Below are positions 1 through 64,000 of a stretch of DNA of 64,000 nucleotides, piece by piece. The position numbers and the translations under genes were made by a program. The notes under the pieces are model-generated. The model did no database searches. It saw only the letters and a program-made list of their open reading frames with translations, and had not been told where the DNA came from. Where the stretch lies: positions 33,381,723-33,445,722 of the forward strand of contig OZ037766.1 of the NCBI GenBank assembly GCA_964035545.1. Reading direction: 5' to 3'. Source of the stretch: Bugula neritina (Eukaryota > Animalia > Bryozoa). How positions within the stretch are numbered: position 1 is the first letter of the stretch; every line of letters starts with the position of its first letter.

Positions 1-442
1 TTGTATTACTAACACATATTGTAGTTGTATTACTAATACATATTGTATAGTTGTATTACTAACACATATTGTAGTTGTATTACCAACACATATTGTAGTT
101 GTATTACTAATACATATTGTATAGTTGTATTACTAACACATATTGTAGTTGTATTACTAATACATATTGTATAGTTGTATTACTAACACATATTGCAGTT
201 GTATTACTAACACATATTGCAGTTGTATTACTAACACATATTGTATAGTTGTATTACTAACACATATTGTAGTTGTATTACTAACACATATTGCAGTTGT
301 ATTACTAACACATATTGCAGTTGTATTACTAACACATATTGTAGTTGTATTACTAATACATATTGTATAGTTGTATTACTAACACATATTGTAGTTGTAT
401 TACTAACACATATTGCAGTTGTATTACTAACACATGTTGCAG
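1..442. repeat. Intronic 24-29-bp minisatellite ending exactly at the GPCR acceptor
   Basis: Unit TTGTATTACTAACACATATTG(T/C)AG. Confidence 0.9.
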
Positions 443-3400
443 TTGCCCTCAGCATTCATATGCTAGTTCTCGCAGAAGGCCACAGGAAGAAAATCAAAGA
501 ACACAACACTCTGAAGAGTAGTCGAGCAGACTCCATCAAGTTTTTCATAACTCTGGTATGCACTTACCTGGTCGCCTACTTAACGCCAGGTACGCATTCG
601 ACACTCATCTTTTCACTGTGACTATTTACTCACTGTGACTACCTACTCACTGTGACTATCTACTCACTGTGACTATCTACTCACTGTGACTACCTACTCA
701 CTGTGACTATCTACTCACAGTGACTATCTACTCACTGTGACTACTTACTCACTGTGACTATCTACTCACTGTGACTACCTACTCACTGTGACTATCTACT
801 CACTGTGACTACCTACTCACTGTGACTATCTACTCACTGTGACTACCTACTCACTGTGACTATCTACTCACTGTGACTACCTACTCACTGTGACTATCTA
901 CTCACAGTGACTATCTACTCACTGTGACTACTTACTCACAGTGACTATCTACTTACTGTGACTATCTTCTCACTATATAGTTGTACTGTCACTAGTAATT
1001 ACAACATCCATATCTGCATTACACATCAACATTTTGCATGTCATTTTACATTCTTATGCCTCAATGCACTAATGTGTCGATGGAATGTGTCATTTATATA
1101 TATATATACATATTACTATTATTAATGAATTTACTATTTGCAACTACCATTACTCTACCCATATACTATACAAACTCTATCTAACAAAAATGTTTTTATT
1201 AACAGCTGTATGCAGTGCAGTTGATGCTTATGACCCCCTATTGAAAATACCTCACTTGAAACTGAGGTCACTTTATTTACTTGGGCCAATCATTTACGCT
1301 GTTCTATATGGATCAAGAATACCTGAAGGTTTCTTTCGGAGCATACGATTGGCTATTTGCTGCTGCTTACCTGTGAAACCAGTGGAGAAGGAAGTGGAGA
1401 TTATAGATGTAGTAAGGTATTGATCAGACCTCCTCTCTCTTTGTATGCATGTATATCTGTCTGTCTGTATGTCTCTCTTTGTATGCATGTATATCTGTAT
1501 ATCTGTCTGTATGTCTCTCTTTCTGTCTGTCCTTTCTGTCTGTCTGTAAGTCTTTCTCTGTGTCTGTTTGTATGTCTGTATGTATGTCTGTATATCTGTC
1601 TGTCTGTATGTCTTTCTCTGTGTCTGTCTGTATGTCTGTCTGTCTTTCTGTCTGTCTGTATGTCTTTCTCTGTGTCTGTCTTTCTGTCTGTCTGTATGTC
1701 TTTCTGTATGTCTTTCTCTGTGTCTGTCTGTATGTCTGTCTGTCTGGGCGTGCGTGTGTGTGCAGAGAGAGAGAGAGAGAGAGTGTGTGCAGAGAGGGTG
1801 TGTGCAGAGAGTGTGTGTGTGCAGAGAGAGAGAGAGTGTGTGCAGAGAGTGTGTGCAGAGAGAGTGTGTGCAGAGAGTGTGTGTGCAGAGAGTGTGTGTG
1901 TGCAGAGAGAGAGAGAGAGAGAGTGTGCAGAGAGTGTGTGTGTGCAGAGAGTGTGTGTGTGCAGAGAGAGAGAGTGTGCAGAGAGTGTGTGCAGAGAGAG
2001 TGTGTGCAGAGAGTGTGTGTGCAGAGAGTGTGTGTGTGTGCAGAGAGAGAGAGAGAGTGTGCAGAGAGTGTGTGCAGAGAGAGAGAGTGTGCAGAGAGAG
2101 TGTGTGTGTGCAGAGAGTGTGTGTGTGCAGAGAGAGAGAGTGTGTGCAGAGAGAGTGTGTGCAGAGAGAGAGAGAGAGAGAGAGAGAGAGTGTGCAGAGA
2201 GAGTGTGTGTGTGCAGAGAGTGTGTGTGTGCAGAGAGAGAGAGTGTGTGCAGAGAGAGTGTGTGCAGAGAGAGTGTGTGCAGAGAGAGAGAGTGTGTGCA
2301 GAGAGAGTGTGTGCAGAGAGAGAGAGAGAGAGAGAGAGAGAGAGAGAGAGAGAGAGAGAGAGAGAGAGAGAGAGAGAGAGAGAGAGAGAGAGAGAGAGTG
2401 TGCAGAGAGAGTGTGTGTGCAGAGAGTGTGTGTGTGTGCAGAGAGAGAGAGTGTGCAGAGAGAGTATGCAGAGAGAGTGTGTGTAGAGAGAGAGAGGGAG
2501 AGAGTGAGAGAGGGAGAGAGGAAGGGGGGAGGGAGGGAGGGAGGGAGGGAGAGAGGGAGAGAGGGAGTGTGTTCAGAGAGTCTGTGCAGAGAGAGTGAGT
2601 TACTATTCACTGCTAGCAAGTGCGCTGGTCTACTACCACTCCGTAATCATATCCGCATATAATAACCCGTAATGTAGTCACAAGAAAATTTTTAAAGTTA
2701 TTAATTATGTTTGGAAAATATTATAAGCGAGAAAAATTATAATGGTGCCAGCACTGGAATTAAAATGTTAACATGTCATTTTATAAACGTATAGTCTGAT
2801 AGTATAGTATATATAGTCTGTTAGTATAGTATAGGTTATATAGTATAGTATATGTAGGTTATATAGTATAGTATAGTATATAGTATAGTATATAGTATAG
2901 TATATAGTCTGAGAGTATAGTATATAGTCTGAGAGTATAGGAAATACTGATAGTCTGTTAATATAATTAGTGTATGTCACAGATACATGTAACTAACTGA
3001 TAGAGAATTATAAAAACGTTAGCGAATAATATCATATCATAGTATATCATATCATAGTATATCATATCATAGTATATCATATCATAGTATATAAGAGTGA
3101 TTATAGAGTGTATAATACGAGTGAAGTGGCATATACTGTAACATAATGTTACAGTAGAATTCAGTGTCAGAGTACTACTTATATTATGTAACATGCTATG
3201 TGATAGGCTAGCCGTCATGAGACTAGGCCATGTAATGGTGAAGATAGACAAACAAGCAGCAATCAAGCGTCACTCATCTTATTTAAAAAGGAGAAGTCAG
3301 ATTATAAACTCCATGACTTTCCTCAAACCAACGCCAAAACCCAGACAGCACGAGACACTTCGACCTTACAAGAGTTTTATACCAACAAGTGAGTGACTAC

Positions 3401-63200: not shown

Positions 63201-64000
63201 CTCTATAGTATTACAGTATATATCTCTATAGTATTACAGTATATATCTCTATAGTATTACAGTATATATCTCTATAGTACTACAGTATATATCTCTATAG
63301 TACTACAGTATATATCTCTATAGTATTACAGTATATATCTCTATAGTATTACAGTATATATCTCTATAGTATTACAGTATATATCTCTATAGTATTACAG
63401 TATATATCTCTATAGTATTACAGTATATATCTCTATAGTACTACAGTATATATCTCTATAGTATTACAGTATATATCTCTATAGTATTACAGTATATATC
63501 TCTATAGTACTACAGTATATATCTCTATAGTATTACAGTATATATCTCTATAGTACTACAGTATATATCTCTATAGTATTACAGTATATATCTCTATAGT
63601 ATTACAGTATATATCTCTATAGTATTACAGTATATATCTCTATAGTATTACAGTATATATCTCTATAGTATTACAGTATATATCTCTATAGTACTACAGT
63701 ATATATCTCTATAGTATTACAGTATATATCTCTATAGTACTACAGTATATATCTCTATAGTATTACAGTATATATCTCTATAGTACTACAGTATATATCT
63801 CTATAGTATTACAGTATATATCTCTATAGTATTACAGTATATATCTCTATAGTATTACAGTATATATCTCTATAGTACTACAGTATATATCTCTATAGTA
63901 TTACAGTATATATCTCTATAGTATTACAGTATATATCTCTATAGTATTACAGTATATATCTCTATAGTACTACAGTATATATCTCTATAGTATTACAGTA
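57255..64000. repeat. 23-bp intronic satellite of more than 6.7 kb (about 290 copies, open at the window end)
   Basis: ATCTCTATAGTA(T/C)TACAGTATAT, beginning about 15 nt after the exon-5 donor at 57241. Confidence 0.97.

What the first reader, a model, noticed from the sequence alone, without database searches (positions are those of the whole stretch)
1..64000. Most introns carry their own private minisatellite: a systematic intron-restricted repeat-birth process
Seen: in the GPCR, PLRG1, CEP63-like and both channel genes, more than 30 intronic arrays occur with units of 9-69 bp. I see no unit shared between two introns. Arrays usually run to within a few bases of a splice site while the exons stay clean and in frame. 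Knowledge: dispersed satellites or TE-borne repeats would share units between loci. Inference: repeats arise de novo in situ by local duplication and amplification in almost every intron, which suggests a lineage-specific mutational mechanism (replication or repair template switching, possibly coupled to transcription or splicing) that drives intron length. This is my best candidate for an undescribed system here; I cannot check the literature.
Basis: partly seen in the sequence, partly recalled or inferred. Interest (0 to 1): 0.85.

Follow-up and report, generated by a model that had tools for sequence, protein, structure and literature searches.

The report
AT-rich intron stuttering in a bryozoan
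In this stretch of a moss-animal (bryozoan) genome, two thirds of the introns are swollen by a tandem repeat that no other intron in the stretch shares, likely grown in place from tiny ancestral introns; it resembles the 'sequence stuttering' recently described in GC-rich bird genes but here it is AT-rich, which would mean high GC is not needed for it.

Summary
The arrays are real. 37 of 55 complete introns carry one (35 of 46 in the five named genes), repeats make up 66% of their bases, and no two introns share a unit. Two claims fail. The arrays are not intron-restricted: all 7 between-gene stretches carry them, and the intron excess is 2.5-fold. Closeness to splice sites equals a positional null (P=0.41), because introns collapse to a median 90 nt. 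Units share an A-tract-poor, TA/AC-rich vocabulary (AA/TT observed/expected 0.34 intronic, 0.40 between genes), symmetric on both strands, with no 5'-3' polarity. That points to a DNA-level process, not splicing coupling. Five of 50 arrays copy their own splice junction ('mirages'). Contigs of a lineage about 5% divergent carry the same units, with one variant fixed across copies. The closest known case is avian 'sequence stuttering' (PMC12954441), tied there to GC-rich, G4-prone DNA; here units are 30% GC. Length polymorphism and genome-wide extent could not be tested. Verdict: new variant of a known kind; interest 0.5.

The parts
443..7256 (+). 3' part of a GPCR-like gene; exons 443-589, 1206-1416, 3207-3388, 6606-6746, 7069-7256; arrays in 4 of 4 complete introns and in the cut intron 1-442
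Evidence: Open spliced frame.
8060..16217 (-). PLRG1, 11 exons; arrays in 7 of 10 introns
   Evidence: One exon 95% identical to Watersipora subatra PLRG1 P0001; tblastn exon map; open frame; junction 11624>11146 seen in one RNA contig of run X2.
18740..30874 (+). CEP63-like gene, 19 exons; arrays in 16 of 18 introns; 12,135 bp span collapses to 4,752 bp
   Evidence: Open 884-aa frame; PF17045 on exons 1-3, each below the curated cut-off; collapse.
47042..52817 (-). DEG/ENaC (ASIC-like) channel gene 1, 11 exons; arrays in 6 of 10 introns
   Evidence: Open frame; PF00858.
55542..57240 (+). DEG/ENaC channel gene 2, first 5 exons; arrays in 2 of 4 complete introns
   Evidence: Open frame; weak PF00858 hit.
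57256..64000 (+). Largest array: 23-bp unit, >=293 copies, starts 15 nt after the ASIC2 donor and runs off the window; shows a switch of variant units along its length
   Evidence: not checked against reads.
32796..45276 (-). Three PAN/CBM14 mucin-like gene models: only 2 of 9 introns carry arrays, but 4 in-frame Thr-rich coding arrays (33446-33991, 38507-38546, 39101-39233, 44402-44561; units 12, 18, 24, 12 bp)
   Evidence: gene boundaries of these three models are uncertain.
1..445 (+). 24-bp array that copies the branch-point-like motif and acceptor of the GPCR exon at 443 (mirage)
   Evidence: 5 copies match the real acceptor at >=12 of 16; the branch-point reading is from the recalled consensus.
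3388..4574 (+). 32-bp array, 37 copies, copying the GPCR intron-3 donor (mirage)
   Evidence: 33 copies match at >=11 of 14.
11970..12163 (-). 50-bp array, 3.9 copies, copying the PLRG1 intron-4 acceptor plus 9 exon bases; copies read AG|GT, like ratchet points; a MITE sits at its upstream edge
   Evidence: 3 copies at >=12 of 16, best 15 of 16; also present in runs X3/X4 with a variant fixed at 12054 and 12104.
22010..22469 (+). 31-bp array, 14.6 copies, copying 14 exon bases and the CEP63 intron-6 donor (exon stuttering)
   Evidence: 11 copies at >=11 of 14, one perfect.
38730..39012 (-). 29-bp (87-bp higher-order) array copying the acceptor of the last exon of the second mucin-like model
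   Evidence: 6 copies at >=12 of 16.
8428..9729 (.). One 23-bp array in PLRG1 intron 10, split into 3.4 and 18 copies by an 812-bp insert (8503-9314; TG..CA ends, 5-bp flanking repeat)
   Evidence: Identical unit on both sides; ends.
40029..43916 (.). Between-gene 17-bp array split into 74.8 and 2.6 copies by a 2.6-kb element (41300-43874) with 29-bp inverted ends
   Evidence: a 14-unit variant block is duplicated, shuffle maximum 5.
31560..32560 (.). Two between-gene arrays (20 bp x36, 26 bp x11) between converging 3' ends: counter-examples to intron restriction
12164..13468 (.). High-copy MITE in PLRG1 intron 4 (23-bp inverted ends, TA flanks); second copy at about 35543-36460; carries the only unit shared between distant places
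   Evidence: 86% identical over 855 bp; summed depth about 1,000-fold the unique level in X1.

Best explanation
This is an AT-rich invertebrate form of 'sequence stuttering': two thirds of the introns hold a locus-private minisatellite that likely arose by a short local tandem duplication inside a small (about 50-110 nt) ancestral intron and was likely amplified by slippage or unequal exchange, with selection likely keeping such arrays out of most exons. Step 1, birth (inferred): a 10-60 bp segment is copied head to tail, often with 0-5 nt of overlap, as gap-fill or end-joining repair and replication slippage would give. It happens in any non-coding DNA and sometimes takes in the splice junction. 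Step 2, sequence filter (bias shown, cause unknown): units lacking A/T runs and rich in TA and AC/GT steps are the ones that persist and grow. Short introns here are richer in such words than other non-coding DNA, which may account for much of the intron excess. Step 3, growth and turnover (pattern shown, enzymology inferred): multi-unit blocks are duplicated, variants spread through an array, and transposons insert while the two halves go on to different copy numbers. Step 4, tolerance (inferred): arrays survive if donor, branch point and acceptor remain; AG stays scarce on the sense strand; decoy junction copies are likely ignored as in known mirages; coding arrays survive only as in-frame Thr-rich linkers.
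For: Architecture: 37 of 55 introns, 19,654 of 29,798 intron bp, median length 477 nt with an array against 145.5 without, collapsed median 90. Private units: 4 of 2,628 pairs share >=20 nt, all same-intron, TE-split or MITE-internal; no excess distal matches. Local origin: 5 of 50 arrays copy their own junction. Not targeted: position null P=0.41, KS P=0.32; arrays in 7 of 7 between-gene segments. DNA-level filter: AA/TT o/e 0.34 (48 intronic units) and 0.40 (18 other) against 0.88 for segments drawn from non-repeat intron DNA (minimum 0.73 in 300 draws) and 0.68 from short array-free introns (minimum 0.57); sense AA 0.33, TT 0.34; stronger with copy number, 0.43, 0.30, 0.25, Spearman -0.32, P=0.01. 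A-run-poor 20-mers: units 57%, exons 30%, short array-free introns 18%, other non-coding 7%. Turnover: repeated variant blocks exceed all 100 shuffles in 6 of 9 long arrays; G>A fixed one unit apart in runs X3 and X4. Literature: PMC12954441 describes the same architecture.
Against: The intron excess is real (5.15 vs 2.07 arrays per collapsed kb, ratio 2.5, P=0.0008; 4.0 for >=4 copies). CEP63+PLRG1 (23/28) far exceed the mucin-like genes (2/9; Fisher P=0.002), which a transcription-linked process would also give. The composition argument rests on 10 short introns and overlapping windows. The AA/TT trend with copy number is partly confounded with period (Spearman +0.29). Three introns collapse to 25-34 nt, below the smallest array-free intron (62 nt), so 'one unit in a small intron' is too simple there. 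Summed depth of run X1 on the 9-bp unit at 10320-10349 is 243,464, above the roughly 35,900 this locus could give, so short units probably recur elsewhere. Birth overlaps are descriptive only: 6 of 12 arrays of <=2.6 copies have 0-5 nt, no null. Length polymorphism was not shown. One window only.
Confidence: 0.65

Rival explanations
1. Birth or growth is coupled to transcription or splicing (R-loops, transcription-replication conflict, repair at spliceosome-bound sites), so arrays form preferentially in introns of germline- or stem-cell-expressed genes.
For: Intron excess 2.5- to 4-fold; 23/28 introns in CEP63+PLRG1 against 2/9 in mucin-like genes; sense-strand AG 88 vs 158 antisense and T>A skew P=0.0005 in units; some 'between-gene' arrays may lie in unannotated UTR introns (e.g. 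17112-18098).
Against: No positional preference for splice sites; no polarity along transcription in 25 arrays; vocabulary strand-symmetric and shared with between-gene arrays; the AG asymmetry is also in array-free introns (169 vs 242); arrays lie between converging 3' ends.
Confidence: 0.17
2. Units are seeded from transposon scraps or dispersed short satellite families and only look private in a 64-kb window.
Against: No excess matches to non-array DNA of the window, its TEs included; 5 arrays are copies of their own splice junction; TEs here insert into pre-existing arrays; the shared words follow the common dinucleotide bias.
Confidence: 0.12
3. The arrays are functional: selected intron spacers or splicing regulators.
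For: Units persist in a lineage about 5% divergent in exons; TR enrichment near intron ends in green algae has been read as regulatory (PMC3887541, passages).
Against: No shared motif or length (periods 12-94); 18 of 55 introns do without; the same arrays occur between genes; no Rfam family at gathering score.
Confidence: 0.03
4. Assembly or sequencing artefact.
Against: Run X1 contigs match array-exon junctions with 0 differences (11604-12012; 10896-11189). Depth ratios 2.9, 3.3 and 2.6 fit 31-mer multiplicities of at most 3, 4 and 4. Divergent runs X3/X4 hold the same units. Ordered variant blocks. X1 may be the source sample and is not independent.
Confidence: 0.03

Closest known systems
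Sequence stuttering of avian dot-chromosome genes (Hron et al. 2026, PMC12954441; read: abstract, first part of results section 7, passages of sections 8 and 9; supplements not read)
   Same: [quoted passage not shown]
   Different: There it is linked to GC-rich, G4-prone DNA and reported in birds (and gerbils, data not shown). Here units are 30.5% GC, with 5 G4 motif matches in the whole window, 3 of them in the MITE. There orthologous introns of close species often differ in repeat sequence; here a 5%-divergent lineage keeps the units. Copied exon parts here are 3-14 nt against 20-187 there. Length polymorphism is shown there, untested here.
Amphioxus 'mirage' minisatellites (PMC3087553 and PMC3902484, passages) and human F7 intron-7 37-bp VNTR (PMC1557585, abstract)
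   Same: Tandem copies of an exon-intron boundary with spare splice signals; 10-72 bp units at amphioxus Adh3; concerted evolution within clusters.
   Different: Mirages are single-gene cases; here they are 5 of 50 arrays inside a general intron-filling pattern. Correct splicing across them was not tested here.
GC-rich chicken 'missing' genes (Beauclair et al. 2019, PMC6792250, passages)
   Same: Introns and flanks consist almost wholly of tandem motifs, different motifs in different places.
   Different: G-rich, G4-forming motifs; five genes only.
Green-algal intronic tandem repeats (PMC3887541, passages) and Diplonema exon-end tandem repeats (PMC10161547, passages)
   Same: Highest repeat density in introns (algae); exon ends repeated into the first intron (Diplonema).
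   Different: Algal repeats are mainly GT/AC microsatellites and enriched near junctions; here minisatellites with no junction preference beyond the null. Diplonema cases are dozens of genes, not most introns.

Membership tests
Sequence stuttering (PMC12954441) | [quoted passage not shown] | tested here: met
   37 of 55 introns; median coverage 65%; units private.
Sequence stuttering (PMC12954441) | Repeat blocks isolated by exons; coding regions intact | tested here: met
   8 of 8 models open; no exon-centred array in the five named genes.
Sequence stuttering (PMC12954441) | Occasional copying of exon edges with the splice site | tested here: met
   5 of 50 arrays; 14 exon bases copied exactly at CEP63 intron 6; shorter than the hits of their screen.
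Sequence stuttering (PMC12954441) | Extensive within-species intron length variation | not testable with these tools
   All four runs are short de Bruijn contigs; depth differences between X1, X3 and X4 are noisy. Membership therefore stays open; the claim is 'works like'.
Sequence stuttering (PMC12954441) | Association with GC-rich, G4-prone DNA (reported correlate, not one of their three main features) | tested here: not met
   Unit GC 30.5%; GC3 0.32-0.54; 5 G4 motif matches in 64 kb.
Mirage minisatellites | Tandem unit spans an exon-intron boundary | tested here: met
   Arrays at 1, 3388, 11970, 22010, 38730.
Mirage minisatellites | Spare sites do not disturb normal splicing | tested here: inconclusive
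   The one RNA run did not cover these junctions; it supports only junction 11624>11146, across a non-mirage array.
Dispersed satellite or TE-borne repeat family | Same unit at many loci, or unit derived from a TE | tested here: not met
   Within the window only; exception: the MITE-internal 24-bp duplication. Genome-wide untested (no genome held); excess depth hints that the 9-bp unit recurs.
   P=0.41 and KS P=0.32 in 30 single-array introns.

The most novel reading that the evidence does not exclude
This bryozoan lineage runs a genome-wide, sequence-selective repeat engine: a repair or replication peculiarity that duplicates and amplifies only A-tract-free, TA/AC-rich 10-60 bp segments. It would turn most minimal introns into private VNTRs and be a main driver of gene length and of the larger genomes of this clade. 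It would be the AT-rich counterpart that removes G4 and GC from the explanation of sequence stuttering, and give thousands of independent natural replicates of minisatellite birth and of decoy splice-site choice.
Probability: 0.3. Interest if true: 0.75.

Novelty: new variant of a known kind. Interest (0 to 1): 0.5.

Why it matters
The bird study left the mechanism open and leaned on GC content and G-quadruplexes (PMC12954441, discussion passages). An AT-rich, nearly G4-free invertebrate case of equal density would show that neither is required. It also offers a testable sequence rule: A-run-poor units are the ones that grow. Ancestral introns appear tiny and each has its own array, so every intron is an independent record of minisatellite birth, turnover and tolerance by the spliceosome. 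The three bryozoan genome papers I searched have no occurrence of 'intron' in their main text (PMC12902671, PMC13326412, PMC11789643; supplements not read). One of them leaves much bryozoan repeat content as 'unknown', and such arrays may be part of it. In practice the arrays and decoy splice sites will mislead annotation, and they are candidate hypervariable markers.

Tried and rejected
No whole genome is held, so nothing genome-wide was tested. Protein searches with a CEP63 exon and a channel exon found nothing at E<=0.001; those models rest on open frames and Pfam. The metagenome scan gave 80 loci at 44-74% identity, none near the 93-100% that W. subatra shows over the WD40 exons; not used. 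Hairpin-driven slippage is not supported beyond composition: mean folding energy -4.64 kcal/mol for 61 units against -4.13 +/- 0.41 for drawn intron segments and -4.65 for dinucleotide shuffles. Palindromic 6-mers exceed mononucleotide but not dinucleotide shuffles (39.5 vs 25.2 and 50.6 per kb). Avoidance of polyadenylation signals does not explain the AA deficit, since TT is equally depleted. Edge units are not more degenerate than interior ones (P=0.63). A sixth array flagged in the junction test (3029-3092, 10 of 16, no copy above threshold) was not counted. No Rfam match. Parts without contig cover were not read as absence. Earlier-findings look-ups by place and relatives were empty. Ten paper searches found no report of intron-filling minisatellites in bryozoans; the library lacks most subscription journals.
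Full report
Setting. A PLRG1 exon of the window is 95% identical to Watersipora subatra PLRG1; an unnamed contig protein, P0041, follows at 92% and all other listed hits are at 80% or below. The N-terminal exons are only 52-71% identical to W. subatra. The window is therefore most likely from a cheilostome bryozoan near, but not identical to, W. subatra. No genome is held. I built eight gene models by hand; all splice at GT-AG into frames with no internal stop: GPCR-like (partial), PLRG1, CEP63-like, two DEG/ENaC channels and three PAN/chitin-binding mucin-like models. 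Pfam supports CEP63 (weakly), ASC, CBM_14 and PAN_1 on 9 of 13 exons scanned. Only one junction has RNA support.

The observation. TRF covers 51% of the window: 72.5% of intron bases, 29.2% of other non-coding bases and 9.4% of exon bases. 37 of 55 complete introns hold an array, 35 of 46 in the five named genes. Repeats supply 19,654 of 29,798 intron bases, and intron length follows repeat content (Spearman 0.83). Among 2,628 pairs of the 73 arrays with period >=9, four share 20 nt or more. Two are single arrays split by an inserted element, one is two neighbours in one intron, and one is a two-copy duplication inside a MITE family. No two introns share a unit, and units match distant non-array DNA no more often than shuffles.

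What fails. The arrays are not intron-restricted. With transposons removed there are 5.15 arrays per collapsed kb in introns, 2.07 in other non-coding DNA and 0.45 in exons (ratio 2.5, P=0.0008; 4.0 for four or more copies), and all seven between-gene segments carry arrays. 'Other non-coding' may hide UTR introns, and split arrays count twice. Splice-site proximity is a by-product of small introns. Collapsing each array to one unit leaves a median 90 nt, and in the 30 single-array introns the edge distance equals random placement (23.1 vs 24.1 +/- 4.1 nt, P=0.41). Four arrays are coding, all with units of 12, 18 or 24 bp in Thr-rich linkers, so arrays form in exons where they are tolerated.

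Are they real? All four public runs are contigs, not raw reads. X1 matches array-exon junctions without a difference, and its depth over three short arrays (2.9, 3.3, 2.6 times unique) fits the expected multiplicities of at most 3, 4 and 4; X1 may be the source sample. X3 and X4 differ by about 5% in exons (12 of 228, 14 of 244, 10 and 9 of 211 bases). Contigs of one or both continue into the same units in PLRG1 introns 4, 7, 8 and 9, with a weaker sign for intron 6. In the 50-bp array both show G>A at 12054 and 12104, one unit apart, in all contigs laid there. The units thus predate that split and have turned over since. PLRG1 intron 5, which has no array, is about 62 nt shorter in X3/X4 (about 50 nt).

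A sequence filter. Units are private but draw on one vocabulary: 93 pairs share 10 nt or more against 7-14 in shuffles. AA/TT observed/expected is 0.36 in units against 0.97 in non-repeat non-coding DNA, TA is 1.65 against 0.98, and AAA/TTT occurs 10.5 against 76.6 times per kb. The bias holds between genes (0.40), is the same on both strands, strengthens with copy number, and CpG is absent from the consensus of all 42 units with four or more copies. Units do not fold better than composition predicts. A-run-poor 20-mers make up 18% of short array-free introns and 7% of other non-coding DNA, a 2.4-fold ratio close to the intron excess; exons have 30% yet the fewest arrays (10 introns, suggestive only). 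Sense-strand AG is scarce in units (88 vs 158), most so near acceptors (31 vs 79), but also in array-free introns (169 vs 242). That fits inheritance from intron DNA plus selection. There is no polarity along transcription.

Growth. In 6 of 9 long arrays a block of variant units is repeated beyond all 100 shuffles (14 vs maximum 5 at 40029), the mark of multi-unit slippage or unequal exchange (established knowledge, recalled). Two arrays were split by insertions and now have 3.4 vs 18 and 74.8 vs 2.6 copies on the two sides. Six of 12 arrays with at most 2.6 copies have 0-5 nt of overhang (no null). Five of 50 intronic arrays copy their own junction, up to 33 times. In PLRG1 intron 4 the 50-bp unit is nearly the whole presumed ancestral intron plus nine exon bases, and its copies read AG|GT. 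An upstream acceptor could then in principle be rescued by re-splicing (inference; untested).

How it most likely works. Shown: private units, small collapsed introns, no junction targeting, strand-symmetric composition bias, block duplication, persistence with turnover. Inferred: birth by short tandem duplication during repair or replication; growth by slippage or unequal exchange; purifying selection in exons and at splice signals. Unknown: why A-run-poor units are favoured, why the rate is high, and whether this is regional or genome-wide. The contrast between CEP63+PLRG1 (23/28) and the mucin-like genes (2/9; P=0.002) keeps a transcription link alive at about 0.17.

Comparison. Earlier scan notes (unchecked) pointed me to the literature, which I then read. 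Hron et al. [quoted passage not shown] They link it to GC-rich, G4-prone DNA and leave the mechanism open. The window works like this. It meets two of their three main features; the third, length polymorphism, could not be tested. It differs in being AT-rich (unit GC 30.5%) and in keeping units across a 5%-divergent lineage. Junction-copying arrays match amphioxus mirages and the human F7 VNTR. Ten searches found no bryozoan report (listed under Tried and rejected); supplements of the bryozoan and bird papers were not read and may hold repeat tables that bear on this.

Verdict. Real, striking and largely of a known kind: a new AT-rich invertebrate variant of sequence stuttering, not an intron-specific birth system. 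Interest 0.5; the bolder genome-wide, sequence-selective reading has probability about 0.3 and would deserve 0.75.

Noticed in passing
window:41300-43874: 2.6-kb element with 29-bp inverted ends (CAC..GTG) and 2-bp flanking repeats, CMC/EnSpm-like by recalled rules, inserted into the 17-bp array.
   Followed up: partly
window:8503-9314: 812-bp insert with TG..CA ends and a 5-bp flanking repeat (solo-LTR-like by recalled rules) inside the 23-bp array of PLRG1 intron 10.
   Followed up: partly
window:12164-13468 and 35543-36460: Very high-copy MITE family with 23-bp inverted ends and TA flanks; about 1,000-fold unique depth in X1.
   Followed up: partly
window:49640-49946: About 300-bp MITE-like insert with inverted ends between two different arrays in ASIC1 intron 6.
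   Followed up: partly
window:36530-37130: A near-perfect large palindrome (about 260-bp arms) centred on an (AT)37 tract, seen by reading the sequence.
   Followed up: no
window:32796-45276: Tandem triplet of PAN + Thr-rich + chitin-binding (CBM14) mucin- or peritrophin-like genes; boundaries uncertain, two models may be one gene.
   Followed up: partly
window:47042-57240: Head-to-head pair of DEG/ENaC channel paralogues with matching positions for the first introns but unrelated arrays in them; a within-genome test of array age.
   Followed up: no
window:16218-18739: PLRG1 and CEP63-like are head to head; an acceptor just before the CEP63 start codon suggests a 5' UTR intron that would contain the arrays at 17112 and 17744.
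   Followed up: no
window:11837-11905: Runs X3 and X4, listed under the same organism code as X1, are about 5% divergent in exons and lack 67 bases of PLRG1 intron 5: possible cryptic species.
   Followed up: no
P0041: A contig protein 92% identical to PLRG1 exon 7 reads through at the same donor position into about 128 codons with no visible periodicity: possibly a relative without an array in this intron.
   Followed up: no
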